Part shown: in pieces, positions 3,707-62,731 of the stretch
Layout: each line of letters starts with the position of its first letter
Numbering within the stretch: position 1 is the first letter of the stretch
Origin: a virus
Taxonomy: Duplodnaviria; Heunggongvirae; Uroviricota; Caudoviricetes; Ackermannviridae
DNA: 64,000 bases
Direction: 5' to 3' (one strand)
IMG/VR virus record: IMGVR_UViG_2974693523_000001
Span: 38,803 to 102,802 of that record
Notes under the pieces: generated by a model
Databases searched by the model: none
What the model saw: the letters and a program-made list of their open reading frames with translations, nothing else
Told to the model about the DNA's origin: nothing
Position numbers and translations under genes: made by a program

Positions 3707-3711
3707 AACAA

Positions 3712-3806: not shown

Positions 3807-3842
3807 GTCTGTGTGCCTAGAATCACATACCTCTCCGCTTTA
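3807..3842 (-). pseudogene. decayed tRNA-Met-like remnant
   Basis: Shares the segments gggtctg, cctaga and cctctccgcttta with the intact tRNA-Met at 2962-3038, with internal deletions. Confidence 0.35.
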
Positions 3843-4323: not shown

Positions 4324-4340
4324 AAACACCTCTAAACAAA

Positions 4341-4417
4341 TGGCGCGCTGTACAGGATTCGAACCTGTGACCACAAGCTTAGAAGGCTCGTGCTCTATCC
4401 TACTGAGCTAACAGCGC
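4341..4417 (-). tRNA. tRNA-Arg (anticodon TCT)
   Basis: Manual cloverleaf: acceptor GCGCTGT/ACAGCGC, D-arm GCTC-AGTAGGATA-GAGC, anticodon stem CGAGC/GCTTG with loop CTTCTAA, T-arm ACAGG-TTCGAAT-CCTGT, discriminator G, CCA. Confidence 0.85.
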
Positions 4418-4652
4418 ATAAATTAATGAGGGTTACGCCGTCCCTCTGCTACCGCTTGCCGGCCATTACGCCTCATCAAAGTAGCCGATTTATTTTATTG
4501 AAATCCTCTTAAGTCGAATATAATAGAGCATACCTCTAAATTCTTTATAGCCATGTGCCACTCAAAAGGATTTCAATAAAGGGGCTGTTTCAAACCCCTT
4601 GGAATGGTGTGGATTAACAATCGCTGACCTGTAATTGTACAGGCACCACACG

Positions 4653-5282
4653 CTAGTTCACAGCGTCACCAATATGACTGAGTTGGTGAACGTCCCCATT
4701 GTCTAGGGCATCTCTCCACCTAAGCAAGGCTTCTTTAACTTCTTTATTACTCTGAGTCATAGCTAAACGGTAAGCATATTCAGATTTTCTTCTGCGCCAA
4801 GCATAATGAGCTTCTAACTCTCTTTCAAAAAGACCTAGATATCCACGTTTTTTATTGAATGGGTCATTACATTGCGCTTTGAACTTACCCGCTACTTTAC
4901 ACCAGCAAACACCTATGAGATATTCTCCAGAACTAGCTTTGTGATCATTTATGAACGCATTAATTTGCCTTGTCACAAACATACATGTATCAGGTGAATA
5001 TAATTTGTTCCCTACTAGCTTTAAATCTTTGTCTAGTACATAATCAAACCCATCTGTTGGGTAATTAGATTCATACCATTCAGCAAAATTTTGGTAGTGT
5101 AACCAATCACCACAAACTTCACATTCTTTATACGTTGGTTGCCTAGAATGATATTTCACGTCGTAGCATCTCTGGAGCATACTTCTCCATTTTATGTACG
5201 AATCTGTTAGAACGCCATCTTGACTCGCTTTATGACGCCCCTTTTCATAGACACCAACACCAAACAATAATTTGTTTCTCAT
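4653..5282 (-). CDS. freestanding homing-endonuclease-like protein with HNH-like region and AP2-type DNA-binding domain
   Basis: YLIGVCWCKVAGKFKAQCN..RGYLGLFERELEAHYAW fits the AP2 pattern. N-terminal GVYEKGRH...YIKWRSMLQRCY and LDKDLKLVGNKLYSPDTCMFVTRQINAF resemble phage HNH/AP2 homing endonucleases. Sits inside the tRNA cluster. Confidence 0.5.
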   Translation of the reverse strand: MRNKLLFGVGVYEKGRHKASQDGVLTDSYIKWRSMLQRCYDVKYHSRQPTYKECEVCGDWLHYQNFAEWYESNYPTDGFDYVLDKDLKLVGNKLYSPDTCMFVTRQINAFINDHKASSGEYLIGVCWCKVAGKFKAQCNDPFNKKRGYLGLFERELEAHYAWRRRKSEYAYRLAMTQSNKEVKEALLRWRDALDNGDVHQLSHIGDAVN

Positions 5283-5840
5283 AACAAATGTACTCGACGA
5301 AAACTTCTCAAAATATACTTTCTCAAATACATTTTGAGAAGTGGGTTGGGAAAATACCCACGTCCCGTCTGTCTCACGACAGTCTCAATCTAGCGGGTCT
5401 TAGGCTCCCGTTAGAAGGGTTCTGTACGGCTTGAGGGATGTAAGCCACCAGAACTAGCGAAACACAACATTTGATCGCGAAATGGCATGTTTATAGCGGT
5501 TGACTTCCCGCGACTGGCAAAACCCCAGTCCATAGAGCGTGGTATGCGTTGCCTCACTCTTTTAAGCGGTCTTAATCTTAGATGAGGAATCCGTTAGCAA
5601 CAATGTTAATCGGATTGATTAAGACCGCTTAAAAAAGACCCCTACACTAAAGGGGTGAACATAAATTTATGTCCTTTTAAAACGCACTTTATCACATCAA
5701 AACAAACTTGAAAAATTTATTTTGATGTGACCCCTATACAGGGACCACAACTGACCTCCGAATCCCAACAAAACGAGGGTCACTGGTTTGCCATGCCATG
5801 TCTTACCAGCTTTAAACACTCTTGACAAAAAGCGCTTAAA
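5283..5840. other. 558-bp structured non-coding region (multiple perfect hairpins/palindromes); candidate stable small RNA(s)
   Basis: 14-bp perfect stem aagcggtcttaatc...gattaagaccgctt (5563-5632) with an internal aatccg/cggatt stem. 14-nt palindrome acataaatttatgt. 11-bp inverted repeat tcacatcaaaa/ttttgatgtga. No credible ORF. Confidence 0.4.
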
Positions 5841-5842
5841 GA

Positions 5843-5919
5843 TGGCGTCCACAATGGGATTTGAACCCATGACCTTTCCCTTAGGAGGGGAATGCTCTAT
5901 CCAACTGAGCTACGCGGAC
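5843..5919 (-). tRNA. tRNA-Arg (anticodon CCT)
   Basis: Manual cloverleaf: acceptor GTCCGCG/TGTGGAC (two G-U pairs), D-arm GCTC-AGTTGGATA-GAGC, anticodon stem TTCCC/GGGAA with loop CTCCTAA, T-arm ATGGG-TTCAAAT-CCCAT, discriminator G, CCA. Confidence 0.75.
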
Positions 5920-47324: not shown

Positions 47325-48038
47325 TTATTTATATTTTTCCAAAATAAATTTTCTTAAACCTTCAGTAAATGCCCAACACGCTTGCCCATAAGGATCTGAA
47401 ACCCACTTAACTCTATTATTACCATATTGTTCAGACGCCTTTTCTTCACTGTATTCTGCGCAATCAATACAGATTGGATAACCATGATCAACATCTAAAG
47501 AATCACAAAACGAATGCATTAGAATAGAGGCAGCTTTTTTCTGAAATTCGGTCATACCACCATAATTTACAAAATAAGCACAAAGACCAGATCCAGAAGA
47601 AAAACCACAGAATAAAACACCTTGAAGTTCTTTGTCAACCTTACTTTGATCACTAATTCGTGTCAAGAATTCACGTCTATCTAAAAGTAAATCCAATGAA
47701 GTTACTATGTCTTCTGAAATAAGTTTGATGCAATGATCATTCAAAAGAGTTTTCATTAATGATCTGCCCAGATTACGAATATAGGCATCCCTTGCACTCA
47801 TATCCATTAATGTATGAACTTTTCTTGTAAGTTTTAGAATACGTGCTTGGATAAACTCACTTTCTTGTGTTTCGATTCCCAATCTTGTATTAGACAATGC
47901 ATTAGACAAAGAAATTAGACGGAGTAAATGAGTGTCACTAAGTTTATTATTCTTAATGTCACTAAAAACCGAAATTAGATGTTTATCAATTTCTTGAGAA
48001 ACACTTTTGAGTGTTTTATCAAATATTTCTGATTTCAT
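47325..48038 (-). CDS. paralog family member 1 (237 aa), unknown function
   Basis: Shares SGLC...FC...YPICIDC...KWVSDPYGQACWAF motif series with the four genes upstream. Confidence 0.55.
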   Translation of the reverse strand: MKSEIFDKTLKSVSQEIDKHLISVFSDIKNNKLSDTHLLRLISLSNALSNTRLGIETQESEFIQARILKLTRKVHTLMDMSARDAYIRNLGRSLMKTLLNDHCIKLISEDIVTSLDLLLDRREFLTRISDQSKVDKELQGVLFCGFSSGSGLCAYFVNYGGMTEFQKKAASILMHSFCDSLDVDHGYPICIDCAEYSEEKASEQYGNNRVKWVSDPYGQACWAFTEGLRKFILEKYK

Positions 48039-48060
48039 GTTAGTACCTATTAACCAAAAG

Positions 48061-48801
48061 TTAAAAAGTTGAAGGAGTAGAAATTGTCAAAAACTCACTT
48101 TCCAAATACTTTTTGAAATTGATTACATGCTCCCAGCGCGCTTGACCATAATCACTTGAATCCCACTTCAACAAGTTTGTATCAAATTGTCTTTCTGCTT
48201 CTCTAGCATCGTAATTACCCAAACAAATTGGATAGAAAGTATCCACTTTTAAATTACGGCAATATTCTTTGTGAAGACGGCTGACAACACCATTTTCAAA
48301 AACTGTGATACCTTTTGTTTTTTCACTAATGTAGCTACAGAAACCGGATGTAATGTTACAATCCAAAACATTCACATAATTTAACTTTTTGATTTCTTTA
48401 TCTTTTAACAAGTCACTTATTTCAGTGATTACACCACGGTTTTCTAACAGTTTATCAACTAATTGAATGGAATAGTTAATACCATATCGATTGTTAGCTG
48501 CTACATTACCAAGCGCAACCATCAAAGAGTGATACAGATTTTTAGTAAACCCACTAAAAATTAAAATATCATCAATTGACTTAACATCAATAGAAATTTT
48601 TTCTAAAGTTTTAGCAACTATATTTGATACTTCGAGTCTAAATTCCGATCTATGACCATAAAACAGTGCATTATCTTTCAGACATCTAAGAAGACATTTT
48701 AGTTCATCTACATTTTCTTTATCAAATTCTACGTCTTTTAGAGCTAAGAATTCATTCTCTAGCATTTGCGCAAAAGAATCTACTTGTGTAATTGTGAGCA
48801 T
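48061..48801 (-). CDS. paralog family member 2 (246 aa)
   Basis: SGFCSYI...YPICLGNYDA...KWDSSDYGQARWEHV. Confidence 0.55.
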   Translation of the reverse strand: MLTITQVDSFAQMLENEFLALKDVEFDKENVDELKCLLRCLKDNALFYGHRSEFRLEVSNIVAKTLEKISIDVKSIDDILIFSGFTKNLYHSLMVALGNVAANNRYGINYSIQLVDKLLENRGVITEISDLLKDKEIKKLNYVNVLDCNITSGFCSYISEKTKGITVFENGVVSRLHKEYCRNLKVDTFYPICLGNYDAREAERQFDTNLLKWDSSDYGQARWEHVINFKKYLESEFLTISTPSTF

Positions 48802-49538
48802 TATTTCACCTCATCTTCAACATCAATAAATGATAGGAAATCTTCAATAAATTTCCAGCGCGCTTGACCATAATCACCTTTATCCCATTTAGGTTCTTTA
48901 CAGTATAGTTGCTCAGCAATCTTTTTATTGTATTCACCAACACAAACGGGGAAAACGTTACTGACATTGATTTTCTTACAGTAAGTGTGAAGAAGACGCT
49001 CAAAGATTTTGTACTCTAATGAAGAATCTAAATAATTCTCTACGGCTTCACACATACCACAATTAAGTGAAAGTGTACCATCAATAAACCAAATTTGTTT
49101 ATCTTCATCGTAAGCCCCACAAAATTCGGATTTAGATGCGTACTTAATGATCAACTTCTTATTGCCTAAAATAGTTCCGATACAGTGGATAACGGTACTG
49201 CGAATGTGATATGAATGAAGGCCTAACTTTGATACATAATCTTCCAAAATAGAACCAGTCCGGATCATAGCGTGTTGAATTTGTCTAAATTCATCATAAT
49301 TGAGTTGTTGTAAAGTTATTTTTTCAAAAAATTTGTAAATGAATTGATTAATAGTACCCTCACAATGTTTAAATCTTTCATCTATTGGGATAGAAGATGA
49401 CTCTGTGAACATTGTATATATGTACACAATATGATGGTAATTTTTGATAGAATCAGAGTAAAGATTTTCATCTTTTATCAACTCTTTTAAGTCTGTAAAA
49501 TAATTTTCAATAATTATTGAAACGTTTTTGGTGTTCAT
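48801..49538 (-). CDS. paralog family member 3 (245 aa)
   Basis: NCGMCEAV...FPVCVGEY...KWDKGDYGQARWKFI. Confidence 0.55.
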   Translation of the reverse strand: MNTKNVSIIIENYFTDLKELIKDENLYSDSIKNYHHIVYIYTMFTESSSIPIDERFKHCEGTINQFIYKFFEKITLQQLNYDEFRQIQHAMIRTGSILEDYVSKLGLHSYHIRSTVIHCIGTILGNKKLIIKYASKSEFCGAYDEDKQIWFIDGTLSLNCGMCEAVENYLDSSLEYKIFERLLHTYCKKINVSNVFPVCVGEYNKKIAEQLYCKEPKWDKGDYGQARWKFIEDFLSFIDVEDEVK

Positions 49539-50272
49539 TTTTGTGCCTCAATTTGTTGAAATTTGTTAAAGATGAAATTATAGAAATTTTCTACCATTTT
49601 CCAACGCGCAGCCCCATAGGGATCTGAACCCCACTTGAGAACTGAGCCATGGTATTGTTTTTCTGGTGCATCACCACAAGCGCTGACAGGATAGTTTGGG
49701 CTTAAATTATTAGCTTCACAAAATTGTGAAAATAGTGTATCCGCAAGATCGCGAAATACATCGTCTTGAGAGCTTTTAAATCTTTTATCAAAAAACTTAC
49801 ACAGACCAGAAGTTAGATCTAAAGCGCCGTTACGCATGTAGAAATCAATATCATCTCCTAATTTAGTTAATCCAGATAACTTATCACACGTTTTAATAAT
49901 ATCATGTTTATTTCTTAAGAGTAGATAAACCGTTGCTTTAATATTGTTCAACATGACCTTATTGTTAAGTGAAACCTTAACAAGATAACGATTTAAGATA
50001 ACTGACAATTCTCTACAGGATGATGAAAAATCCAAGTATTGTTCTGCATTTTCAAACTTTGTGTTGTCCTTCAAATACTCAATAATTGGTGTGGCAGCGC
50101 AGTTGACTTCACTCTCAAGGTTAAGATCACCGCAAACAAGACACTTTAATGGTTCGTGGCGTAGATAATTTGCAGTGATTATCAATTTGTTGATTGTTTC
50201 TATGTGGACAATATGATTGTCAGCTGTACGGACTAAATCACCTAGATGATTAAACAATTCATTTTTGTTCAT
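49535..50272 (-). CDS. paralog family member 4 (245 aa)
   Basis: SGLCKFF...YPVSACGDA...KWGSDPYGAARWKMV. Confidence 0.55.
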   Translation of the reverse strand: MNKNELFNHLGDLVRTADNHIVHIETINKLIITANYLRHEPLKCLVCGDLNLESEVNCAATPIIEYLKDNTKFENAEQYLDFSSSCRELSVILNRYLVKVSLNNKVMLNNIKATVYLLLRNKHDIIKTCDKLSGLTKLGDDIDFYMRNGALDLTSGLCKFFDKRFKSSQDDVFRDLADTLFSQFCEANNLSPNYPVSACGDAPEKQYHGSVLKWGSDPYGAARWKMVENFYNFIFNKFQQIEAQK

Positions 50273-50317
50273 GAGATTTTCCTATTAAAGTTTATCAAAC
50301 CTAACCACAATAAAGTG

Positions 50318-50345
50318 AAAAAGGGGTTTTGTAAACCCCTTTTTG
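50318..50345. terminator. bidirectional intrinsic terminator (AAAAAGGGGTTTTGTAAACCCCTTTTT)
   Basis: Hairpin flanked by A- and T-runs; near-copy of the 47292 terminator. Confidence 0.6.
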
Positions 50346-50349
50346 AAGA

Positions 50350-50721
50350 TTAACCTTGGTTTAACTCCCAAGCACCTAACATGAATTCAAACGCTTTTGC
50401 TTTCCATTTTTCATTAATGAATCCGTGCCCGTTAGGTCTTCCCGAATAGACAAGCCAAGCATAATCATGGCTATAATTAAACTGGTATTCAACTGGCTCA
50501 CTATCCTTCTGTAACCAAATTTTTGTTAGATTAGGGAATCTTGGTGTATCTTCAAGAATACTTACGTGTTCACAAAGAACAATCATACCCCGTTTGACAC
50601 CAAGTAATTCTAATTGTTCATTAGATTCATGAACTTCAGCAAAAAATTTCTCACCTATTTGAATATAGGCTGCATTGGCATCAAACATTTTTTGACTCCG
50701 CTTTTTCAACAATGTAATCAC
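50350..50721 (-). CDS. hypothetical protein (123 aa) embedded in the paralog array; possibly a truncated/diverged relative
   Basis: C-terminal ...GHGFINEKWKAKAFEFM loosely echoes the paralogs' PYG.ARW.F tail. Confidence 0.4.
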   Translation of the reverse strand: MITLLKKRSQKMFDANAAYIQIGEKFFAEVHESNEQLELLGVKRGMIVLCEHVSILEDTPRFPNLTKIWLQKDSEPVEYQFNYSHDYAWLVYSGRPNGHGFINEKWKAKAFEFMLGAWELNQG

Positions 50722-51451
50722 GTAGCTCTTTTACAAAATTCCAGCGCGCTTCACCATACGGGGTTCTTCCCCACTTGATATGATTTTTATTCCACTCAAA
50801 AGAACCACTAGTCCATCTAGTTGAAAGAGTAACTGGGAACACACGATGATAACCTTTTTCAGTACAGAAAAGTGAAATAAGTATATCAGCAATCTCACGA
50901 TCATTCCCACTAAGTCTTTCATCAAAAACATGACACAAACCAGCGGTCAGTTTGACTGTATCATATGAAAAACTTATTGCTGAGGTGCGATATCTTTTAC
51001 TATCTTCATAGAATTCAGCTTTTGAAATATTGGAGCAGAATTCTTCTATTCCCTGCCTTAAGGATAACAATCTATCGAGAACTTTAATAATGTATTCAGT
51101 TCCAAAATAAATACCATACTGATTAACAATCCTTTGACAGTAGCTATTAACCATTTTTGAAACTTTGGTAATCACCGAAATAGAATCTTTAACCGTTTTA
51201 CAATCAACAAGAAAATCATTAATTATCTCTTTGAGTTGTACGGCATATTCATTATATTCTGGTAATTCGTTATAGAATTGAACTGGATCTGTAGACCATT
51301 CCTGTACTTGTTCCTTAAGTAACAGAATTTTTTCATATTGTTCTTTTGTTTGGTTTCTAAAACAATCAGTATTTAGAGTGTTTCTGAAATCTCTAACAGT
51401 GTCAGAAACTTTAGCATTTAACCCAGGTTGTTCAATGTTTATTGTGATCAT
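50681..51451 (-). CDS. paralog family member 5 (256 aa)
   Basis: AGLCHVF...FPVTLSTRW...KWGRTPYGEARWNFV. Confidence 0.55.
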   Translation of the reverse strand: MITINIEQPGLNAKVSDTVRDFRNTLNTDCFRNQTKEQYEKILLLKEQVQEWSTDPVQFYNELPEYNEYAVQLKEIINDFLVDCKTVKDSISVITKVSKMVNSYCQRIVNQYGIYFGTEYIIKVLDRLLSLRQGIEEFCSNISKAEFYEDSKRYRTSAISFSYDTVKLTAGLCHVFDERLSGNDREIADILISLFCTEKGYHRVFPVTLSTRWTSGSFEWNKNHIKWGRTPYGEARWNFVKELRDYIVEKAESKNV

Positions 51452-53967: not shown

Positions 53968-54723
53968 TTAACCTTGCTTTTCAATGATCTTGTTAGCTAG
54001 TCTTTCCTTACTTTTATCCTTAACACCAAAAGAATTACCAATTTCACGGACTTCTTCCATTTCCATTGCCATTAATTGGTCAAAGGTGTACTTGGTTACT
54101 TCTTCAGTTTCAGTTGGTTGCTCAACTTCAGTTTGTTCTACGACTTCTTCAGTTTCAGTTGGTTGCTCAACTTCAGTTTCAACTTCAACCTTAGTTTCTG
54201 ACTCAGTTGTTTCTGTTGGCCAGTATGATTCTTCATCTGATTCAACATTTTGGGTAGGTATTAAATGTGCGGGTGGTGTTGGAATTAGATCAGCACCTGA
54301 AGGCAAATCACCATGCACCATGTCTTCTGGCATCACGGGCAAAGCTCCAGGGAATTCACTTTGTAATTGAACTGTTTCTTGCGGTATAAACTTTTCTTCT
54401 ACAAATGTTTGTGGTTGTGAATTGAAATCTTCAACACCAAACACAACAAGAGGAGAAAAATGTTCAAAGCCGTACTTGTTTACAGTTTCAGCCCAGTATT
54501 TTGGGACATATTTATCAACTTCATTACTAACAATTTCATTACCTTCTGAAGTTAAGAAATTTTCATAAAGAATTTGATCTAAACCAAAGATTTCATAAGA
54601 GATAGAAAACCCCTTATTATCAAAACAGTTAGGGACTGCCCATCCATATTTTGTGGCAAAAGCAATACCTTCACGCGGTTGTGGTCTTGTATTCAAGTAC
54701 AATTGTATTGATTGATTGTTCAT
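53968..54723 (-). CDS. hypothetical protein with acidic tandem repeat (TEVEQPTETEEV x2) and Rho-N/SAP-like C-terminal helix-hairpin
   Basis: In-frame DNA tandem repeat at about 54090-54176; C-terminal FDQLMAMEMEEVREIGNSFGVKDKSKERLANKII resembles the Rho N-terminal domain. Confidence 0.45.
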   Translation of the reverse strand: MNNQSIQLYLNTRPQPREGIAFATKYGWAVPNCFDNKGFSISYEIFGLDQILYENFLTSEGNEIVSNEVDKYVPKYWAETVNKYGFEHFSPLVVFGVEDFNSQPQTFVEEKFIPQETVQLQSEFPGALPVMPEDMVHGDLPSGADLIPTPPAHLIPTQNVESDEESYWPTETTESETKVEVETEVEQPTETEEVVEQTEVEQPTETEEVTKYTFDQLMAMEMEEVREIGNSFGVKDKSKERLANKIIEKQG

Positions 54724-54734
54724 GATTAATTACC

Positions 54735-55589
54735 TTATTTGTGAATCCAGTTATCTAGCTTTAATTGGTTGATATAACTAGGGAGATCATGTTTTGGGGA
54801 CCAACCTAATTCTCTAACCGCATCAGTGTGTAATTTTGCACTCATCCGGTTACCCATTCGCTCAGGTTTGAATTTAATTTCACCACCAAACATAGTGGCA
54901 ACATCCAAAATAGAGTAATTGTCTTGATGTCCTATACCATATAGATCACCACTACCATGCTTTCCTACGCGAATAAGACCATCAACAATGTCACTAACAT
55001 GCGTAAAGTTACGCTCTTGATTTCCTGGGAGTGTAACGTTAAGTGGTTTACCCCTGAACATGTTGCTTCTAAAGATACCAATAACGGTACCATAGCGCCC
55101 ATTTGATATTTCTCTAGGACCATAAACGTTGTAGAAATAAGTGATTGCATAATCTATGTCATACCACTTTGCATACTCTTTTAGAGTTTCAACGTTTTGG
55201 GATTTTGATAAAGAATATGGTGAAGTTGCATCACCGAACGCTGTACTACTTCCCGCATATACAATTTTCGCACCAATATCACGAACATAATTAAAGACCG
55301 TTCTGGTACCCACAACATTAGATTGGAAAACTTTATCAACATCATCAAAACTTTCTTCAACGCGCGAATACTCACCTAAATGAAAAATAATATCAGGTGT
55401 TATTTCGAGTTGATAAATTTCAAATGTATGCATATGATGATATGTGACACCACTCACATGGTTATTCATACTACCAGTGGAATAATTATCAAGACTATGT
55501 ACTTCATAACCTTCATTAACTAAAGCTTCACATAAATGGGAGCCAATAAATCCAGCCCCACCCGTTACCAATACAACTTGCTTTTTCAT
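54735..55589 (-). CDS. NAD-dependent nucleotide-sugar epimerase/dehydratase (SDR; UDP-glucuronate decarboxylase/4-epimerase-like)
   Basis: Rossmann VLVTGGAGFIGSHL, catalytic YxxxK region (YSLSKSQ), 284 aa. Confidence 0.65.
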   Translation of the reverse strand: MKKQVVLVTGGAGFIGSHLCEALVNEGYEVHSLDNYSTGSMNNHVSGVTYHHMHTFEIYQLEITPDIIFHLGEYSRVEESFDDVDKVFQSNVVGTRTVFNYVRDIGAKIVYAGSSTAFGDATSPYSLSKSQNVETLKEYAKWYDIDYAITYFYNVYGPREISNGRYGTVIGIFRSNMFRGKPLNVTLPGNQERNFTHVSDIVDGLIRVGKHGSGDLYGIGHQDNYSILDVATMFGGEIKFKPERMGNRMSAKLHTDAVRELGWSPKHDLPSYINQLKLDNWIHK

Positions 55590-56860
55590 TAGTCTTTACC
55601 TGTAATATCACGAGAATAAACGTTAGTTGTTCCGCAGTACATTTCAAGCCTATCATCAACTCGGTTAGCGACAATAACATCTGTCATTTGACCAAACTGT
55701 TTTAGATTTTTGATGACTTTACAACCCATATATTCATTTTCTGTAATGCTAGGATCATAAATAACAATGTAATCTAAAACATCTTTACCAATTTTTTGAA
55801 GTTCTTTAATTAAATGAGAAGATGGAGACTCACGGTGATTGTCAGAACCCGCTTTCATAGCTAGTAAATAGATGCCAATGCGTTGATACCCATAACTAAG
55901 AATATCGTTTGCTATGAATTTAATGCGTGAGTCATTTGATGCAACAATGGCATTAATGATGTCTCTTGGGATTAGTGTATTCGGCTCTCCGTTAAACGTA
56001 GACGCTAATTGTTTTGTGTCCTTGGGGAAACAATAACCACCGTAACCAAACGACGGGTTAGCATACATGGAGCCGATTCTGCGATCACTTGTAACACCTG
56101 CCATAATATCAGATGATTTAAGTTCGTTTTCCAATGCAAAACTATCAAGTTCATTAAAAAATGCTACACGCATGGCAAGGTATGCGTTTGAAAACATTTT
56201 AACTGATTCAGCCGACTGAGTTGACATTTTTAAGCATTTAACTTCACTTGAATTGACACAAGCATTTTTCATCATACTAATATAAAGATTAGCAATTTCA
56301 GTTTGGTCATAAATGTTATCATAACCAATTATAATTCGGTCTGGGTTTCGGTTATCAAGAAATGCTTGACCCTCACGAAGAAATTCAGGTGAAAACATAA
56401 TATCAACACCTGTATCAGCTGATAATTTACCGCAATAACCAATAGGGATAGTTGACTTAATGACAATATTTGCATCTGGTTTAACTTTAAGAACGTCTGC
56501 AACCACTTTTTCAATAATTGATGTGTCAAATGATTGTGTTTCTGTATTGTAATTGGTGGGCACACAAACCATAACAAAATCAGAATCAGTAACAGCGCTT
56601 GATATATCAGTGGTTGCTGACAGACATTTCGTAATATCCTTACGATTTGTTTCCATAAGACGATCTGCAATTTTATCACGTACTGGTAAAATACCACTAT
56701 TGATCATCTTGACACGTTCTTCATTAATATCATTAACCACAACATTATGGTTATATTTGCTGTTGTTATAAGCTAAGAGAACAGCCATTGCAGAACCAAC
56801 ATAACCACTACCAATAATTGCAATTTTCATAGGAGTATCCTTTTGTTTAACAGTGTGCAA
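55589..56860 (-). CDS. ugd: UDP-glucose 6-dehydrogenase (UDP-glucose/GDP-mannose dehydrogenase family)
   Basis: N-terminal MKIAIIGSGYVGSAMAVLLA Rossmann and catalytic GGYCFPKDT. 423 aa. Confidence 0.7.
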   Translation of the reverse strand: MHTVKQKDTPMKIAIIGSGYVGSAMAVLLAYNNSKYNHNVVVNDINEERVKMINSGILPVRDKIADRLMETNRKDITKCLSATTDISSAVTDSDFVMVCVPTNYNTETQSFDTSIIEKVVADVLKVKPDANIVIKSTIPIGYCGKLSADTGVDIMFSPEFLREGQAFLDNRNPDRIIIGYDNIYDQTEIANLYISMMKNACVNSSEVKCLKMSTQSAESVKMFSNAYLAMRVAFFNELDSFALENELKSSDIMAGVTSDRRIGSMYANPSFGYGGYCFPKDTKQLASTFNGEPNTLIPRDIINAIVASNDSRIKFIANDILSYGYQRIGIYLLAMKAGSDNHRESPSSHLIKELQKIGKDVLDYIVIYDPSITENEYMGCKVIKNLKQFGQMTDVIVANRVDDRLEMYCGTTNVYSRDITGKD

Positions 56861-56895
56861 ACTATAGCAATTTTATCTTCATAAACATATTTAGA

Positions 56896-56924
56896 AAACA
56901 AAAACGGGGCAAAAAGCCCCGTCT
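56896..56924 (-). terminator. intrinsic terminator on minus strand (GACGGGGCTTTTTGCCCCGTTTTTGTTTT)
   Basis: 7-bp GC stem plus U-run, downstream of the 644-aa gene. Confidence 0.6.
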
Positions 56925-56940
56925 TAATTAACAACATTTA

Positions 56941-58875
56941 TTAATGTTTGTCAGCTTCACTAGTAGCGAAAGCACCTTTAGAATCAGCACGGATTTTACC
57001 ACTATGATACGCAATGGTTACATCCTCAGAAACGTAGTATTTACAACAACGAATCTTACGAGCGTTGTAATCTTGTGGGATAGCAACAATGTCAGCTGGA
57101 CTTAATTTTGCGCGCATGATCTTACTGTCAACCTTTGAGTAACCAGACATACGATTAACGTAATCCAACGAACAAACGTGAAGACCTTGAGTACATGTGG
57201 CTGATGTACTTGGATCTATTTTTGAACGGTCCATGTAAACAGTAGAACCAACAGAGTTGTCAATCTTATTAGTGTAATCATCACGATAGAACTTGTTAAC
57301 CGCTTTATAAACGTATAGATCACCGTCTTCACAGATCTGAACATCACCAAACTTCATAAAGTGTGGGATCCGTTCAATAATATCATCCAGTGGGTTTTGG
57401 AACATCTTCTGAATAAAGTTATCCAATGCATTTAGAGCGGCATAATCACCCAACTCGAGTAGGTGTTCAACTCGGTTTTGAATAATTGAAATTGATGGAT
57501 GTACTTTTACATCTTTAATCTTAATTACAATACCTTCACCTACACTGTATTTGAAGTGAATACCTTCATAAGCAGAAATGTCTTTAATACCTTGAGCGGC
57601 AAGGAACGCGGCGTTATTATCACCCATAACTAAACAGCGATAGACCTCGTCATACCCTGTACTTCCTTTGGTCACAGTGATTTGTTTACCACTTTCCAAT
57701 TCAATCATTTGAATCTGTGTGGCTGTTGAGAATACGCGATAACCACCACCTGATTGAGGTACCAAGTCCTTATTATCACAACTCATACGCTTCTGATAAA
57801 CTTTTTCACTAACTTTAATAAGCAATTGCTCATTATTGCGTTGAGTTTTTGTAACATCAACCTCGGTTAGATCATAGCTTTTATCAGCAATATCACGAAT
57901 GATAAATTCTTTGATGATATTTGAATCAGGGCTAATTTCAATAGTATTACCTTCGCGATCAATAAATTGACCTAGTGTTTCCGCTTGTAGAATGATCTTT
58001 AAATCGTATGCAAAACCACTAGCAAATTCACAAGCAACAACCTCACTTTCGTTATCCAATTCTACTTCATCACCTAACAGAAGTAAGGTTTGGATATGCT
58101 CTAGTTTAATGCTGTCAACATTTTTCAATAGTTTAGAGCAATCAACTACGACTGTTTTTAAGTCGTTTTGTGAAACAACAAAATAGTTACGATTAATTGA
58201 GCGATCTTCAATATTCGTATCTTCACTGTTTTTAAAGATAAAAATTGTCCCAGGCATCATATCTTTAAGGATTTGTTTACTTACGGCAAGTGATGCAATT
58301 TCACCTTCTTTAAAGTATTCAATTTTCAAAGCCATAAGTTTGTCTAGCTTATTACGACTCCAACCTAATTCATCCATATACTGTTGTTTTGTTTTAACAC
58401 CAGTTTTGATATTCTCTTGGATTTCAATTAAGGTTTCAGGTGGGATTTCAGTAAAATCACCTTTTTTAGCCGTTGCCAAAACATCTTTAAATCTATCAAG
58501 ATTTTCAGGTTTAGAAGCAAAGTTGTTGAAATCCATACGGCCTTGCTCAATAAGTATTTCTAAACGATACTTACTAGGGATATTATATTTTTTCATTATC
58601 CCAGGACGTGAAAGACGTTCTGTATTTACGCCTTCATAATCCATATAAACCTTAACCGCAAGCCCATCAGGGATTTTGCTTTCTACAGGTTTTTCTTTTT
58701 CGGTTACAGAGGTTTTTTCAAACTTCTCTTTTGCGCGAGGTACCAACAGGCACGTTTTATACATAGACAAACCAATACGACCTTTGATTTGTTCCCTTGT
58801 CAGACCTTGTTGGACATACTCAAAAATTCTTTTTAGAAGATCTAAATCTTCCATTTCTTTAATAAACACTGGCAT
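56941..58875 (-). CDS. hypothetical protein (644 aa), co-oriented with the GHKL gene
   Basis: Long ORF with no recognisable motif; own terminator. Confidence 0.5.
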   Translation of the reverse strand: MPVFIKEMEDLDLLKRIFEYVQQGLTREQIKGRIGLSMYKTCLLVPRAKEKFEKTSVTEKEKPVESKIPDGLAVKVYMDYEGVNTERLSRPGIMKKYNIPSKYRLEILIEQGRMDFNNFASKPENLDRFKDVLATAKKGDFTEIPPETLIEIQENIKTGVKTKQQYMDELGWSRNKLDKLMALKIEYFKEGEIASLAVSKQILKDMMPGTIFIFKNSEDTNIEDRSINRNYFVVSQNDLKTVVVDCSKLLKNVDSIKLEHIQTLLLLGDEVELDNESEVVACEFASGFAYDLKIILQAETLGQFIDREGNTIEISPDSNIIKEFIIRDIADKSYDLTEVDVTKTQRNNEQLLIKVSEKVYQKRMSCDNKDLVPQSGGGYRVFSTATQIQMIELESGKQITVTKGSTGYDEVYRCLVMGDNNAAFLAAQGIKDISAYEGIHFKYSVGEGIVIKIKDVKVHPSISIIQNRVEHLLELGDYAALNALDNFIQKMFQNPLDDIIERIPHFMKFGDVQICEDGDLYVYKAVNKFYRDDYTNKIDNSVGSTVYMDRSKIDPSTSATCTQGLHVCSLDYVNRMSGYSKVDSKIMRAKLSPADIVAIPQDYNARKIRCCKYYVSEDVTIAYHSGKIRADSKGAFATSEADKH

Positions 58876-58944
58876 GATATTTCCTCAAACTAATGGGAGT
58901 AGGTGGTCTGACATATAATATCAAACCACCAATTAGTGAATAAA

Positions 58945-61900
58945 CTAAATTTCGTCGTCTGTATCCGCTAAAGCATCAATTACATCAACTACGAAATTAT
59001 AAACAACTTCAGTCTCGTCGTTACTTTGTGAAAGAACGGTATATTTGTAGAACAATCTTAAATCATCGGATTCTAGATATTTTTCAAGTATATCCTCAAT
59101 TTCATAAAGTGCTGACTTGATAGGTTTATTACAAACACTAGACTTTGAATATTCTCTAATAGATTTAGCAATCTCAGTTCTTAAATTATAATTAGAGATG
59201 TAACAAACACCACTATCAATCCAATCTCTAATAAGTTGATTTTCATAATGATTAGGTATCATGTTTGCTCTTCGATAAACTTCTTCATATTCAAGACGTT
59301 TTGTTAGTTTCCGCAACACATTTTTTTCGGAGAAATTATCGGATTTATTAATACCAAAACGCGAAGTAAATGGGGTAAAGATATCTAAGTAAGACTCCCA
59401 GAATTTATAAATTCTTTGATAATGGCGCTCTAACTTAACAACTTCACTATTTTGAGAAGCAATTTCTAATAGATATGCACCAACTTTTAAATCTCTATGT
59501 GATTTTGTAGGTCTAAACTTATCATAAGATTTTTTGAAACATTGCTTATGATAAGATAACTGTTGTTCCGTAAATGAATTAGGAACATACAAATTAGCGG
59601 TTGACATAAATTTAAAGTCTTTCACTAAATCATGTTTGTTAGGTTGAATATTATAAATTTCGCGGGTTTTATTAGAGATAATAGTATCAATAAGTTTTGA
59701 AACACCTAGAGAAATACATGTATCCAACATTTCTTTAAGAGGTACAAAAACTTCTTTGTGTTCCTCAAAGAATTTTCTTCCAACAACACGTACCCCGATA
59801 ACACGCTCATGATAAGAACTTTTGATTAGATCTAATTCATCAGAATATTGTTTAATACCTTTTATCTCAAGATTGATAGTCGATACACTGTTGATCTTTT
59901 TACCTAAGTTTGAATCTTCATGTATCTCGTGACCACGCAAATAAACAAACGGTATTTGTTTGTTTTCATTTTGTGCTTCTTTGATCCACTCCATAAGCTT
60001 TTCACCTGAGATAGGGCACCATTTATGATGCTCAATAACGGTAATACCCTTTAACTTCTTGATATTCTCAAGAGTGATTTCCTCAGGTTTTATGGCAATA
60101 TTATCAACGTGATAGATCTCAGCACCTACAGACTCAAAATATTCGCGTAAAAATGCATAGACTTTGAAGCTTGTGTCACGGTTCATTAAAACTTTATTAA
60201 AGCAATCATTTGCAAGAACTTTTAAATGTTCACTAACACGTACCTCATAAAGTTCAAAAGACTTTTCTTTTATTTCTTCTTCAGTTGGTAAAATATCCAT
60301 CAAATCAGTTTCTTGACGATCTCTGATTAATGACATTCTAGCATCTATTAGAAACTCTTCGGGTTTTGGTGCAAAAGTATATCCAAATTTTTCTTTTAAT
60401 GTGCCGCTATAAAATGCATCTTCAATATCGGTAGCAAATTTTTCTTTAGATATACCGTACACTTTATTGAGTATTAATGACGTTAGCTTACCATCTATAG
60501 TGATTGGTGTTAGATAAGGATAGTATCGGTTTGTTTTATCTACTTGTGATAATTGTGATACAAGATTTGAATACAGTTCTTGAGCCTTTTTAAGTGCCCC
60601 TTGACCATCCATAAAAACAAAATAGTTTTTGTATGGTGTGCCATCAGATCTGAATTGCGGGTAGATATATTTTGTGTCAATATCGTATCGACAATATTTA
60701 CTTAGTGAAAAATCACGACCTTCGGCATAACCATATTCAGTAATTTGTTTACTAGAACCAAAATTAACGTGATTCCCCATAAACTCAACACCCAACATAT
60801 CACACATATAGGTCGTCGGATTTACACAGGTATCTTCCTCAATTACTGCTTGTGTAGGTAGATAATCACGAAGAATTTCAGTGTTGAACATTGTTTTAAG
60901 TTTTTCAAAGTTTTTGATCTTCTCAAAAATATTGTTCCCAATACGATACGTTTTAAGAAATTCAGTTACTTTATTTACCGCTTCACCAAGAACATCCTCT
61001 AAAACCCTGATAGTGTGTTGATCATATTCAAGGTCTTCACGTGAAGGTTGCATATTTACTTGGCCAATATCAAAGAACGTGTAGGTATCACGTTGTAGAC
61101 ACTGAAAGAAGTGTGAAATATCATACGACAACATGTTTATATCAATAGGATAAACAACACCACCTTGAACGGCATAGTGACGACCGGTACCACCAGAGGT
61201 AATATAAGTGTTATGGAAATAACTAACAAAATCAGGTTTTCTTACAATAACTTTCTTATTAGTGAATAAATAAGGTGTGTCAAAGAAACGCATAACTTTA
61301 GAAAGAGCTGAACTAAATTTCTCAATACGATCAACTGTTACTGGTACGCGAACAGTCATACCGTTATATTCTTGCCCTTTGACCATTGGGATGGGTTTAG
61401 GTAAACCATATTCATCACACGAAATTAATTCGGCTGTTGGCATACGCTGCGAATCTTCATAAATAAAGATAATGTATTTTTCACCATTAAAGCGTGTTTC
61501 AACTGTATATGAATCAGAGATAGTTGAAGGTGATTTTGCACCCAGTCCAAACCCACCAATTTGTGAATTGTCATCATCCTTAGGACTGTCAAATAGTGTG
61601 GTGTACATACCACCAGACCAAATAACCTTACCATTAGGACCAAACAAGTACATTTCTTCAGGTTTTGTCATTAACGCTCTTTCTTCTTCTGAAGCGTTAA
61701 TATAATCTTGATTGAATAAAGGTAGTCCAAGAATTTTTTCAAGTGGTAGACCAACACCAAAATCCTCACATTCGAAATAAGGTTCTTTTTCGGTTGGTAC
61801 GTGAAGATTAAATGGTTTATTGAAAGGTGCAAGCCACTCAAGTTCTTTATTGTTTTCAAAATAAAGCTTGTTAGCGTAAACGCTTTGAGTGTGAGAGACC

Positions 61901-62109
61901 GACATAGAGGGACGATGTTTTTGATCTCGTAGTTTATGTGCATCAACACAATTTGACACTAATTCACGCGCCACAGCCTCTTCTTTGTATCGATACAGTG
62001 TATCAACCAATGTGCGAATTGTTTTTGCTGTAGCCTTAATTTTAAAACCTACACCACCAAGCATTTGATCTGAGTTGACGAATCCAGAATTAGGGGTATT
62101 AAATTTCAT
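58945..62109 (-). CDS. 1054-aa protein with N-terminal GHKL (Hsp90/MORC-type, HATPase_c_3-like) ATPase domain; remaining ~800 aa unassigned
   Basis: Bergerat N-box ELVSNCVDAHK (compare Hsp90's ELISNASDALDK) and G2-box IGGFGLGAKS...YTVETRF (compare Hsp90's IGQFGVGFYS...VTVTSK and MORC's FGNGFKS). No TOPRIM EGDSA motif. Confidence 0.5.
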   Translation of the reverse strand: MKFNTPNSGFVNSDQMLGGVGFKIKATAKTIRTLVDTLYRYKEEAVARELVSNCVDAHKLRDQKHRPSMSVSHTQSVYANKLYFENNKELEWLAPFNKPFNLHVPTEKEPYFECEDFGVGLPLEKILGLPLFNQDYINASEEERALMTKPEEMYLFGPNGKVIWSGGMYTTLFDSPKDDDNSQIGGFGLGAKSPSTISDSYTVETRFNGEKYIIFIYEDSQRMPTAELISCDEYGLPKPIPMVKGQEYNGMTVRVPVTVDRIEKFSSALSKVMRFFDTPYLFTNKKVIVRKPDFVSYFHNTYITSGGTGRHYAVQGGVVYPIDINMLSYDISHFFQCLQRDTYTFFDIGQVNMQPSREDLEYDQHTIRVLEDVLGEAVNKVTEFLKTYRIGNNIFEKIKNFEKLKTMFNTEILRDYLPTQAVIEEDTCVNPTTYMCDMLGVEFMGNHVNFGSSKQITEYGYAEGRDFSLSKYCRYDIDTKYIYPQFRSDGTPYKNYFVFMDGQGALKKAQELYSNLVSQLSQVDKTNRYYPYLTPITIDGKLTSLILNKVYGISKEKFATDIEDAFYSGTLKEKFGYTFAPKPEEFLIDARMSLIRDRQETDLMDILPTEEEIKEKSFELYEVRVSEHLKVLANDCFNKVLMNRDTSFKVYAFLREYFESVGAEIYHVDNIAIKPEEITLENIKKLKGITVIEHHKWCPISGEKLMEWIKEAQNENKQIPFVYLRGHEIHEDSNLGKKINSVSTINLEIKGIKQYSDELDLIKSSYHERVIGVRVVGRKFFEEHKEVFVPLKEMLDTCISLGVSKLIDTIISNKTREIYNIQPNKHDLVKDFKFMSTANLYVPNSFTEQQLSYHKQCFKKSYDKFRPTKSHRDLKVGAYLLEIASQNSEVVKLERHYQRIYKFWESYLDIFTPFTSRFGINKSDNFSEKNVLRKLTKRLEYEEVYRRANMIPNHYENQLIRDWIDSGVCYISNYNLRTEIAKSIREYSKSSVCNKPIKSALYEIEDILEKYLESDDLRLFYKYTVLSQSNDETEVVYNFVVDVIDALADTDDEI

Positions 62110-62175: not shown

Positions 62176-62200
62176 ATAAAAACCCGCACTAGGCGGGCAT
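62176..62200 (-). terminator. intrinsic terminator on minus strand (GCCCGCCTAGTGCGGGTTTTTATT)
   Basis: Stem plus U5 downstream of the gene at 62216-62731. Confidence 0.55.
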
Positions 62201-62215: not shown

Positions 62216-62731
62216 TTACTTCATATTTGGTGGTAAAATTAAACCAGATTCTTCATCAGGTTTTTCATCACCAAACATTTTAATTAGTCTATCTTCAACA
62301 CTAATCTTTTCAGATTCTTCGAAATCCAAATCTAAAGAAACACGTTCTTCAACTAATTTTGGTGGTGTGTAAATTTTACGATCAATAACTTCAACTTCAT
62401 CCTCACCATTAGTCTGTTTAACCCTGAAGCTCATGACTGGTTGTCCTTCATCACCAAGTTGTAGAATATGCTCAAAGCGTACACGAACATTTTCTTCCCA
62501 AATCTTTTCCTGATCTTCTACTTTTTCCGCTGTTAGATCATTTGCTAAGCGAGTGAAAAATACATCAAGTGTAAGCATATCAAAAACAGGCTTAACAGTT
62601 AGATCAACAAATTGAACTTGACTAAGATTAATACTTTCCAAACCAAGATAACCACGGACATTGGTTAGGAAATGATTTAGTCTTTCTTCATTAATATTAA
62701 AAGTTAATTGCATTGTTTTATCCTCAATCAC
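62216..62731 (-). CDS. hypothetical acidic protein (171 aa), downstream of the helicase (loader/accessory candidate by position)
   Basis: ORF, overlaps the helicase stop by 8 nt. Confidence 0.45.
   Translation of the reverse strand: MIEDKTMQLTFNINEERLNHFLTNVRGYLGLESINLSQVQFVDLTVKPVFDMLTLDVFFTRLANDLTAEKVEDQEKIWEENVRVRFEHILQLGDEGQPVMSFRVKQTNGEDEVEVIDRKIYTPPKLVEERVSLDLDFEESEKISVEDRLIKMFGDEKPDEESGLILPPNMK

What the first reader, a model, noticed from the sequence alone, without database searches (positions are those of the whole stretch)
53968..62109. Giant GHKL (Hsp90/MORC-type) ATPase protein plus 644-aa partner next to a phage-encoded UDP-sugar pathway
The 1054-aa ORF starts with a clear Bergerat-fold ATPase. 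The N-box is ELVSNCVDAH and the G2 box is IGGFGLGAKS followed by YTVETRF. This is closer to Hsp90 and MORC/HATPase_c_3 than to GyrB or T4 gp39, and there is no TOPRIM EGDSA motif. About 800 residues follow with no recognisable domain. It is co-oriented with a 644-aa unknown gene. Directly downstream are UDP-glucose 6-dehydrogenase and an SDR epimerase/decarboxylase (a UDP-GlcA to UDP-Xyl/Ara-type route), then a protein with an acidic repeat and a Rho-N-like domain. Such a large Hsp90/MORC-like ATPase is not a T4 gene I recognise. The neighbourhood suggests either a glycan or DNA-hypermodification module, or a novel chaperone or anti-defence machine.
Basis: partly seen in the sequence, partly recalled or inferred. 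Interest (0 to 1): 0.8.

Follow-up and report, generated by a model that had tools for sequence, protein, structure and literature searches.

The report
Classic phage rIIA/rIIB gene pair
The "giant Hsp90-like ATPase plus partner" is the Vibrio phage Kuja version of rIIA and rIIB, the long-known phage gene pair that protects infection against abortive-infection defences, and the neighbouring sugar genes are an unrelated lineage-specific insertion.

Summary
The window is Vibrio cholerae phage vB_VchM_Kuja (Ackermannviridae), 100% identical.

The 1054-aa protein is rIIA. PHROG RIIA families match at 3e-86 and 1e-70, and T4 rIIA matches at BLASTP 4e-24. The 644-aa protein is rIIB. PHROG RIIB matches at 2e-52, and T4 rIIB matches at 5e-32 with 40% identity. 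RefSeq already names both genes.

The rIIA N-terminus is a GHKL ATPase closest to Hsp90/HtpG. The N-box, G1 and G2 boxes are invariant in 44 homologues. The top 50 Foldseek hits are all Hsp90 family. Against HtpG, hhalign gives 98% probability and E 3e-13, far above GyrB, MutL or T4 gp39. An invariant PSRE loop aligns with the Hsp90 middle-domain catalytic arginine, and there is no TOPRIM domain. A GHKL head with a variable C-terminus is already published for rIIA.

The UDP-glucose dehydrogenase and SDR genes lie behind a strong terminator after rIIB. They are absent from that slot in two relatives, so they are not coupled to the ATPase.

Most likely function: an ATP-driven counter-defence module against Rex-like abortive infection, as shown for five divergent rII modules. 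The mechanism is unsolved. Verdict: already known, low interest.

The parts
58945..62109 (-). rIIA gene (1054 aa), whole ORF
   Evidence: phrog_3661 RIIA 3e-86 and phrog_612 RIIA 1e-70. BLASTP to T4 rIIA 4e-24. RefSeq product 'RIIA lysis inhibitor'. tblastn finds 2358 phage records matching the N-domain.
61330..62052 (-). rIIA GHKL (Bergerat) ATP-binding domain, aa ~20-260. N-box ELVSNCVDAH is at 61936-61965. G1 box DFGVG is at 61750-61764. G2 box GGFGLG is at 61540-61557. A 65-residue stretch lies between G1 and G2, where GHKL proteins carry the ATP lid.
   Evidence: Motif residues are invariant in 44 homologues. AF2 pLDDT is mostly above 90 here. Top Foldseek hits are Hsp90/TRAP1/GRP94 at 1e-11. 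Profile against PDB gives HtpG at 2.7e-18. 20 of 44 homologues hit Pfam HATPase_c and HATPase_c_3.
60910..61329 (-). rIIA second domain, aa ~261-400, Hsp90-middle-like. It carries the invariant PSRE loop at 61036-61047, with R357 at 61039-61041.
   Evidence: R357 is invariant and E358 nearly so. hhalign in greedy mode aligns Kuja 15-401 to HtpG 2-381 and places PSRE on HtpG VSRE (R336). An independent local alignment gives the same register, score 19.2 against shuffles 11.0±1.9, 0 of 100 reaching it. Foldseek TM-score is 0.55, normalised to the 365-residue TRAP1 chain 4z1i_A.
58948..60909 (-). rIIA lineage-variable C-terminal region, aa ~401-1054. It has mixed alpha/beta and helical domains and no transmembrane segment.
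   Evidence: No Pfam hit. Homologous over Kuja aa ~359-800 to the C-regions of a second group of rIIA proteins (P0008-P0015; named ones are Vibrio phages) at 97.9%, E 4e-13. No similarity to the T4-like group beyond ~70 aa. Full-length relatives are few: VPALA and SUMAE at 39% identity, and P0002-P0007. pLDDT is mostly 60-90. Maximum KD19 hydropathy is 1.2.
56941..58875 (-). rIIB gene (644 aa), whole ORF
   Evidence: phrog_3803 RIIB 2e-52. BLASTP to T4 rIIB 5e-32, 40% identity over aa 487-620. Pfam PF26926 Phage_T4_rIIB is precomputed on the 99%-identical P0045. RefSeq product 'RIIB lysis inhibitor'.
58336..58875 (-). rIIB N-terminal region, aa 1-180: three small helical, HTH-like modules
56968..57750 (-). 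rIIB conserved C-terminal module, aa ~376-636. Invariant residues: G517, D531, N539, G542, C560, G563, L564, H565, Y571, P592, V596, K606, R608.
62182..62198 (-). Terminator-like hairpin followed by a T-run, upstream of rIIA. It closes the helicase/171-aa ORF unit.
56901..56925 (-). Strong intrinsic-terminator-like hairpin (10-bp stem, 6 GC pairs, T-run) starting 15 nt after the rIIB stop codon. It separates rIIA-rIIB from the sugar genes.
55589..56830 (-). UDP-glucose 6-dehydrogenase-type gene (413 aa). It is a neighbour and not part of the rII module.
   Evidence: TIGR03026 scores 291 bits against a cutoff of 190. PDB UDP-glucose 6-dehydrogenases match at 6e-88. Only 37 of 50,697 phage records have a homologue. 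The gene is absent from this slot in VPALA and L005. It is present in the near-identical relative L006.
54735..55589 (-). Extended-SDR nucleotide-sugar epimerase/dehydratase-family gene (284 aa). It overlaps the dehydrogenase gene by 1 nt and belongs to the inserted cassette.
   Evidence: Pfam Epimerase 3e-40. No NCBIfam equivalog cutoff is reached. The best PDB matches tie between UDP-glucose 4-epimerase at 6e-28 and UDP-glucuronate decarboxylase at 6e-27.
53968..54723 (-). Acidic 251-aa protein with a C-terminal DUF7440 motif. In relatives it is the conserved gene directly downstream of rIIB.
   Evidence: DUF7440 1e-9. Orthologues lie directly after rIIB in VPALA (3e-23) and L005 (2e-56).

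Best explanation
[quoted passage not shown] They form a two-gene unit bracketed by intrinsic terminators.

rIIA is an Hsp90-like GHKL ATPase. Its Bergerat ATP-binding domain has the catalytic Glu (E49), the Mg-binding Asn (N53), the adenine-contacting Asp (D116), glycine-rich G1 and G2 loops, and a 65-residue G1-G2 stretch where the ATP lid lies. A second domain follows. Its invariant PSRE arginine (R357) most likely completes the active site, as the Hsp90 middle-domain arginine does. A ~650-residue lineage-variable C-terminal region comes last.

rIIB combines HTH-like N-terminal modules with the widely conserved rIIB C-terminal module.

By homology with T4 and four other tested phages, the pair most likely acts to keep infection productive in hosts that carry Rex-like abortive-infection systems, which depolarise the membrane. 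rIIA would supply an ATP-driven clamp or remodelling activity, and the variable parts would set target specificity.

Shown here: identity of the genes, the fold and motifs, the operon structure, and independence from the sugar genes.

Inferred: ATP hydrolysis, the role of R357, the counter-defence role in Vibrio, and any rIIA-rIIB complex.
For: Identity:
- The window is 100% identical to NC_048827, where the genes are named RIIA and RIIB.
- PHROG RIIA at 3e-86 and RIIB at 2e-52.
- T4 rIIA BLASTP 4e-24 and T4 rIIB 5e-32.
- PF26926 Phage_T4_rIIB on a 99%-identical protein.

GHKL and Hsp90-like character:
- Invariant N-box, G1 and G2 residues.
- 20 of 44 homologues hit HATPase_c or HATPase_c_3.
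- The AF2 N-region has pLDDT above 90.
- Foldseek top 50 are all Hsp90 family, E 1e-11.
- The best 60 profile hits in PDB are all Hsp90 family.
- hhalign against HtpG gives 98%, E 3e-13; GyrB, MutL and gp39 score far lower.
- PSRE aligns with HtpG VSRE.

Operon structure:
- Terminators at 62198-62182 and 56925-56901.
- rIIA-rIIB adjacency is conserved in VPALA, L005 and L006.

Function from the literature:
- rIIA combines an N-terminal GHKL domain with a highly variable C-terminus and is a counter-defence protein (PMC7824862).
- Knockdown of divergent rII modules in T4, MM02, EdH4, SUSP1 and N4 sensitises the phages to lambda RexAB (PMC11879866).
- Transposon insertions in T4 rIIA and rIIB are depleted on RexAB hosts (bioRxiv 2025.11.20.689424).
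- RIIB alone triggers CARD-gasdermin systems (PMC10312443).
Against: - No Rex-like system was identified or tested for V. cholerae, and no experiment exists for Kuja.
- The Kuja proteins do not reach Pfam thresholds for HATPase_c or any HTH model themselves.
- The R357-to-Hsp90-arginine equivalence rests on a greedy hhalign extension, a z~4 local alignment against a single sequence, and Foldseek superpositions whose residue pairs I could not inspect. A middle-domain profile alone finds no Hsp90 in PDB sequences.
- The C-terminal 650 aa of rIIA and the conserved rIIB module have no assignable function or solved fold.
- The molecular mechanism of rII remains unknown even in T4.
- Iyer et al. interpret rIIB as a transcription factor.
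Confidence: 0.9

Rival explanations
1. rIIB is a specific transcription factor, through its HTH domains, that modulates phage transcription with host state. rIIA is its ATPase partner. The rII phenotype would then be regulatory rather than a direct block of a defence effector.
For: - Iyer et al. 2021 list rIIB among phage-specific transcription factors.
- 29 of 62 rIIB homologues carry Pfam HTH domains.
Against: - The most conserved part of rIIB is the C-terminal module, not the HTH. Many of the 6885 related clusters match only that module.
- Published work describes T4 rII as countering RexAB.
- RIIB alone triggers gasdermin systems and is toxic.
- The Kuja HTH-like modules do not match any HTH model by sequence.
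Confidence: 0.15
2. The pair is a general membrane-integrity or lysis-timing function, as the database label 'lysis inhibitor' implies, and not a dedicated counter-defence system.
For: - The T4 RefSeq note reads 'membrane integrity protector; mutants give rapid lysis on various lysogenic strains'.
- PHROGs place the families in the category 'lysis'.
Against: - rII genes are dispensable without Rex in five phages and needed with it.
- HIDEN-SEQ finds them conditionally essential only with RexAB.
- Neither Kuja protein has a hydrophobic segment compatible with a membrane span. Maximum KD19 hydropathy is 1.2.
Confidence: 0.12
3. One reading: the ATPase, its partner and the UDP-sugar enzymes form one module for glycan synthesis or DNA hypermodification.
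For: The genes are co-oriented and adjacent in Kuja. The near-identical contig L006 also has the dehydrogenase after rIIB.
Against: - A 10-bp-stem terminator lies between rIIB and the dehydrogenase gene.
- VPALA and L005 keep the order helicase, rIIA, rIIB, DUF7440, PhoH without the sugar genes.
- The dehydrogenase occurs in only 37 of 50,697 phage records, whereas rIIA occurs in 2358.
- No glycosyltransferase is annotated in the window.
Confidence: 0.03
4. It is a fused or degenerate type II topoisomerase ATPase subunit.
For: Its ATP-binding domain is a GHKL (Bergerat) fold. By established classification, GyrB and the type II topoisomerase ATPase subunits are GHKL proteins too.
Against: - No EGDSA or TOPRIM motif, and no Pfam Toprim hit.
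- hhalign against GyrB gives 34% and against T4 gp39 0.8%, compared with 98% against HtpG.
- All top structural hits are Hsp90 family.
Confidence: 0.01

Closest known systems
Bacteriophage T4 rIIA / rIIB (the rII locus)
   Same: - The rIIA N-terminal ~350 aa is homologous (25% identity, E 4e-24), with identical N-box, G1 and G2 logic and the PSRE loop.
- The rIIB C-terminal module is 40% identical (E 5e-32).
- The two genes are adjacent and co-oriented, with rIIA first.
- The locus lies near replication genes.
   Different: - Kuja rIIA is 1054 aa against 725. It has two insertions in the ATPase domain relative to T4 and a C-terminal region with no detectable similarity to the T4-like group.
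- Kuja rIIB is 644 aa against 312. It has three HTH-like modules and an extra middle region.
- The host is Vibrio, and the defence system countered is unknown.
Other large rIIA proteins: VPALA, SUMAE, and a second group of Vibrio-phage and metagenomic rIIAs (P0008-P0015)
   Same: - VPALA and SUMAE match over 90% of the length at 39% identity.
- Synteny is the same: helicase, small ORF, rIIA, rIIB, DUF7440, PhoH.
- The second group (P0008-P0015, 868-972 aa) shares the N-domain at 100% probability and part of the C-region at 97.9%.
- Phages annotated with rIIA in Salmonella, Escherichia and Dickeya match the N-domain at ~37% identity.
   Different: - Only the Kuja lineage carries the UDP-sugar cassette after rIIB.
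- The last ~250 aa of Kuja rIIA are shared only with the closest relatives.
Hsp90 family (HtpG, TRAP1, GRP94, Hsp90)
   Same: - It is the best structural and profile match for rIIA aa ~15-400.
- Shared features: the N-box with catalytic Glu, the DxGxG and GxxGxG loops, and a following domain with an SRE arginine loop aligned to HtpG R336.
   Different: - Sequence identity is 10-16% in the Foldseek alignments.
- Full-length TM-scores are only 0.32-0.39, normalised to the target.
- The rIIA C-terminal 650 aa are not demonstrably related to the Hsp90 middle and C-terminal domains.
- No chaperone activity is known for rIIA. It resembles Hsp90 but is not a member of the family.
Other GHKL ATPases (GyrB/type II topoisomerase, MutL, MORC, sacsin)
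   Same: The Bergerat fold and its motifs are shared.
   Different: - hhalign similarity is much weaker: GyrB 34%, MutL 43%, T4 gp39 0.8%.
- There is no TOPRIM domain.
- Sacsin appears only below threshold.
- MORC was not tested directly.

Membership tests
GHKL (Bergerat-fold) ATPase superfamily | Motif I / N-box, ExxxNxxD, with catalytic Glu and Mg-binding Asn | tested here: met
   E49-LVS-N53-CV-D56. All three residues are invariant in 44 homologues.
GHKL (Bergerat-fold) ATPase superfamily | Motif II / G1 box DxGxG and Motif III / G2 box GxxGxG | tested here: met
   D116-F-G-V-G120 and G185-G-F-G-L-G190. The D and G positions are invariant.
GHKL (Bergerat-fold) ATPase superfamily | Bergerat alpha/beta sandwich fold | tested here: met
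   AF2 model with pLDDT above 90 for most of aa 30-400. 253 PDB matches at E<=1e-3, and the top 50 are all Hsp90 family.
GHKL (Bergerat-fold) ATPase superfamily | Significant match to curated HATPase_c-type models | tested here: inconclusive
   The Kuja protein itself has no Pfam hit. 20 of 44 homologues hit HATPase_c_3 and HATPase_c, best 8.6e-11. The family profile hits HtpG at 2.7e-18.
GHKL (Bergerat-fold) ATPase superfamily | ATP binding and hydrolysis | not testable with these tools
   This needs a biochemical assay of the wild type against E49A, D116N and R357A.
Phage rIIA family | Homology to T4 rIIA and to rIIA family profiles | tested here: met
   BLASTP 4e-24 to T4 rIIA. phrog_3661 at 3e-86 and phrog_612 at 1e-70.
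Phage rIIA family | Architecture: N-terminal GHKL domain plus a variable C-terminal region (Iyer et al. 2021) | tested here: met
   N-domains align at 100% probability between groups. The C-region aligns at 97.9% with one group and not at all with the T4-like group.
Phage rIIA family | Adjacent, co-oriented rIIB gene | tested here: met
   rIIB starts 69 nt downstream of rIIA. The same arrangement is seen in VPALA, L005 and L006.
Phage rIIB family | Conserved C-terminal rIIB module (Pfam PF26926 Phage_T4_rIIB) | tested here: met
   T4 rIIB matches at 5e-32 with 40% identity. phrog_3803 at 2e-52. PF26926 is precomputed on the 99%-identical P0045. The model is not in the local Pfam copy.
rII counter-defence function (anti-RexAB) | The genes are dispensable on naive hosts and required on hosts with a Rex-type abortive-infection system | not testable with these tools
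   This is shown for T4, MM02, EdH4, SUSP1 and N4 only. There are no data for Kuja or Vibrio.
Hsp90 family proper | Middle-domain catalytic arginine loop (SRE) completing the ATPase site | tested here: inconclusive
   The invariant PSRE aligns with HtpG VSRE (R336) in greedy hhalign and in a local alignment with 0 of 100 shuffles reaching its score. The middle-domain profile alone finds no Hsp90 in PDB sequences.
Hsp90 family proper | Full N-M-C architecture with a C-terminal dimerisation domain | tested here: not met
   Full-length TM-scores are 0.32-0.39, normalised to the target, with rmsd 14-24 Å. The C-terminal 650 aa show no sequence relation to Hsp90.
Type II topoisomerase ATPase subunit | TOPRIM domain / EGDSA motif after the GHKL and transducer domains | tested here: not met
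   The motif is absent. There is no Toprim Pfam hit. hhalign against GyrB gives 34% and against T4 gp39 0.8%.

The most novel reading that the evidence does not exclude
Probability: 0.3. Interest if true: 0.45.

Novelty: already known. Interest (0 to 1): 0.15.

Why it matters
For the scan, it matters mainly as a correction. A high-interest 'novel giant Hsp90/MORC ATPase' is the textbook rII locus, and it is already labelled in RefSeq.

The molecular mechanism of rIIA/rIIB is still unknown about 70 years after its discovery. The analysis gives that problem some concrete handles:
- The ATPase head is Hsp90-like rather than topoisomerase- or MutL-like.
- There is a candidate catalytic arginine to mutate.
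- The conserved rIIB module has a confidently predicted fold with no solved relative.

The UDP-glucose dehydrogenase plus SDR cassette is a rare, lineage-specific auxiliary insertion in a cholera phage. It could affect host surface sugars, and it should be studied separately from rII.

Tried and rejected
- Pfam on both proteins gave no hit. NCBIfam gave only a sub-threshold sacsin hit. PADLOC gave nothing meaningful.
- Single-sequence PDB searches were weak: HtpG at E 0.32 for rIIA, and only chance antibody hits for rIIB.
- The search for related loci in IMG/VR with rIIB found no confirmed relative.
- The word-indexed homologue search for rIIB returned only 3 proteins because of the candidate cap. 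The exhaustive representative search replaced it.
- phrog_609 matches both rIIA and rIIB, which suggested fused rIIA-rIIB proteins. None of the 196 fetched proteins carries both modules, so the fusion hint stays unverified.
- The middle-domain profile A4 against PDB sequences found no Hsp90.
- TRF found no DNA-level tandem repeat behind the acidic protein repeat.
- Literature searches for rIIA with Hsp90 or GHKL were swamped by Fc-gamma-RIIA papers. Only Iyer et al. 2021 was relevant.
- The sigma-70 promoter scan found fewer sites than the shuffles (28 against 43.6), so no promoter was assigned.
- Rejected hypotheses: a topoisomerase fusion, and functional coupling to the sugar genes.

Full report
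**Identity of the window.** Window 53968-62109 is 100% identical to Vibrio phage vB_VchM_Kuja (MN718199 / NC_048827, record 92770-100911). Kuja is a 148-kb Ackermannviridae (Kujavirus) phage of V. cholerae O1 El Tor. The original GenBank record calls the two large genes hypothetical. RefSeq calls them 'RIIA lysis inhibitor' and 'RIIB lysis inhibitor', and UniRef names the large one 'RIIA protein'.

**Check of the observation.** All five minus-strand ORFs are present.
- In the 1054-aa protein, ELVSNCVDAH is at aa 49-58, IGGFGLGAKS at aa 184-193 and YTVETRF at aa 201-207.
- A G1 box, DFGVG, is at aa 116-120, and there is no EGDSA-type motif.
- The downstream genes are a nucleotide-sugar dehydrogenase and an extended SDR. 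The dehydrogenase passes TIGR03026 above its cutoff and matches PDB UDP-glucose 6-dehydrogenases at 6e-88. The SDR matches Pfam Epimerase at 3e-40.
- The 251-aa protein carries a duplicated acidic peptide and a C-terminal DUF7440 match at 1e-9, not Rho_N.

**What the two large genes are.**
- PHROGs assigns the 1054-aa protein to RIIA families (3e-86 and 1e-70) through aa 1-~420. It assigns the 644-aa protein to RIIB families (2e-52) through aa ~390-636.
- Direct BLASTP to T4 proteins gives rIIA at 4e-24 (Kuja 21-366 against T4 19-287) and rIIB at 5e-32 (40% identity over Kuja 487-620).
- A 99%-identical rIIB from a public assembly carries the precomputed Pfam family PF26926, Phage_T4_rIIB.
- tblastn finds the rIIA N-domain in 2358 of 50,697 phage records. 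An exhaustive HMMER search finds the rIIB C-module in 6885 representative clusters.

This is therefore the classical rII locus and not an unknown gene pair.

**Anatomy of rIIA.**
- In an alignment of 44 homologues, E49, N53 and D56 (N-box), D116, G118 and G120 (G1), G185, G188 and G190 (G2), and R357 are invariant. E358 is nearly invariant.
- The Kuja protein has no Pfam hit of its own. Relative to T4 rIIA it carries two insertions within the ATPase domain, which may be why. Even so, 20 of 44 homologues match HATPase_c and HATPase_c_3.
- The full-length AF2 model has mean pLDDT 78.8, and most of aa 30-400 is above 90.
- Its 50 best Foldseek hits in PDB are all Hsp90-family chains (TRAP1, GRP94, Hsp90, HtpG; E ~1e-11). 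The TM-score is 0.55 when normalised to the 365-residue TRAP1 chain 4z1i_A.
- A profile of the family hits HtpG at 2.7e-18, and the best 60 PDB sequences are all Hsp90 family.
- hhalign of the aa 1-420 profile scores 102.6 against HtpG (98%, E 3e-13). It scores 38.4 against GyrB, 39.2 against MutL and 21.3 against T4 gp39.

In greedy mode, the HtpG alignment runs from Kuja 15 to 401 and places the invariant PSRE on HtpG VSRE (R336). From established Hsp90 knowledge, R336 is the middle-domain arginine that contacts the ATP gamma-phosphate. A separate local alignment of the aa 262-400 profile to HtpG 226-414 gives the same register. Its score is 19.2 against 11.0±1.9 for shuffles, and 0 of 100 shuffles reach it. 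I regard the R357 equivalence as moderately supported, because the middle-domain profile alone does not retrieve Hsp90 from PDB sequences.

The remaining ~650 residues are folded (pLDDT mostly 60-90) and have no transmembrane segment. Over Kuja aa ~359-800 they are related to the C-regions of a second group of rIIA proteins (P0008-P0015; the named ones come from other Vibrio phages) at 97.9% and E 4e-13. They show no similarity to the T4-like group beyond ~70 aa. [quoted passage not shown] At 1054 aa, Kuja rIIA is at the large end of a 677-1125 aa range.

**Anatomy of rIIB.**
- The AF2 model has pLDDT 81. It shows three small helical bundles in aa 1-180, a beta-rich middle region, and the conserved module at aa ~376-636.
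- The invariant residues of that module are G517, D531, N539, G542, C560, G563, L564, H565, Y571, P592, V596, K606 and R608.
- Foldseek finds no PDB relative; the best E is 0.3.
- 29 of 62 homologues carry Pfam HTH domains. This agrees with Iyer et al., who treat rIIB as an HTH protein.

**Relation to the sugar genes.**
- A 10-bp-stem, GC-rich hairpin with a T-run starts 15 nt after the rIIB stop codon, at 56925-56901. A second terminator-like hairpin, at 62198-62182, precedes rIIA. rIIA-rIIB therefore looks like a discrete transcription unit.
- In Vibrio phage VPALA, and in a metagenomic relative (L005), the order is UvsX/RecA, helicase, small ORF, rIIA, rIIB, DUF7440 protein, PhoH. Neither carries the sugar genes.
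- Only the near-identical contig L006 shares the dehydrogenase after rIIB, at 94% identity.
- Dehydrogenase homologues occur in just 37 phage records.

The cassette is a Kuja-lineage insertion and is not a partner of the ATPase. The SDR cannot be assigned a reaction. Its best PDB matches tie between UDP-glucose 4-epimerase and UDP-glucuronate decarboxylase, and no NCBIfam equivalog cutoff is met.

**Mechanism.** The following are established for other phages.
- rIIA and rIIB are dispensable on naive hosts.
- They are required on hosts expressing lambda RexAB, which aborts infection by membrane depolarisation. This holds for five divergent rII modules with under 40% identity (PMC11879866). It is confirmed by transposon sequencing in T4.
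- RIIB alone is toxic and triggers CARD-gasdermin systems (PMC10312443).

How rII acts is not known. From the anatomy, I infer that rIIA is an ATP-driven, probably dimerising, GHKL clamp of the Hsp90 type. Its variable C-region, together with rIIB, would provide target specificity. In Kuja the target would be an unidentified Vibrio abortive-infection system.

Rivals are a regulatory (transcription factor) role for rIIB and a general membrane or lysis-timing role. The topoisomerase reading and the sugar-module reading are rejected.

**Verdict.** The feature is already known and already annotated, so interest is low. What remains of interest is the unsolved rII mechanism and the lineage-specific sugar cassette.

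Noticed in passing
window 47325-51451 (minus strand): A tandem array of five paralogous ~240-aa genes: 47325-48038, 48061-48801, 48801-49538, 49535-50272 and 50681-51451. They share a C-terminal motif, roughly (F/Y)P(V/I)C...KW..(D/T)PYG.ARW. All are annotated hypothetical.
   Followed up: no
window 54735-56830: The UDP-glucose dehydrogenase plus extended-SDR cassette is a Kuja-lineage insertion between rIIB and the DUF7440 gene. It is absent from VPALA and L005 and present in L006. Dehydrogenase homologues occur in only 37 of 50,697 phage records. The SDR reaction is unassigned, and no glycosyltransferase is annotated in the window.
   Followed up: partly
[not shown]
   Followed up: no
PHROG family phrog_609 (matched by window 58945-62109 and 56941-58875): One 1055-position profile labelled RIIB matches the rIIA ATPase region at profile positions 98-337 and the rIIB C-module at positions 782-1048. 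This hints that fused rIIA-rIIB polypeptides exist. None was found among the 196 fetched proteins.
   Followed up: partly
window 62216-62731 (minus strand): A small ORF (listed as 171 aa from a GTG start, annotated as 165 aa) lies between the gp41-like helicase and rIIA. An ORF of similar size (160-166 aa) sits in the same position in VPALA, L005 and L006; sequence similarity was not checked. It has no family match and is separated from rIIA by a terminator-like hairpin.
   Followed up: no
window 2962-5919 (minus strand): Three tRNA genes, Met-CAT, Arg-TCT and Arg-CCT, are interleaved with an endonuclease gene and an HNH endonuclease gene.
   Followed up: no
window 53968-54723: This acidic 251-aa protein has a duplicated EVEQPTETEEV peptide and a C-terminal DUF7440 motif. 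In relatives it is the conserved gene immediately downstream of rIIB, and its function is unknown. There is no Pfam Rho_N hit.
   Followed up: partly
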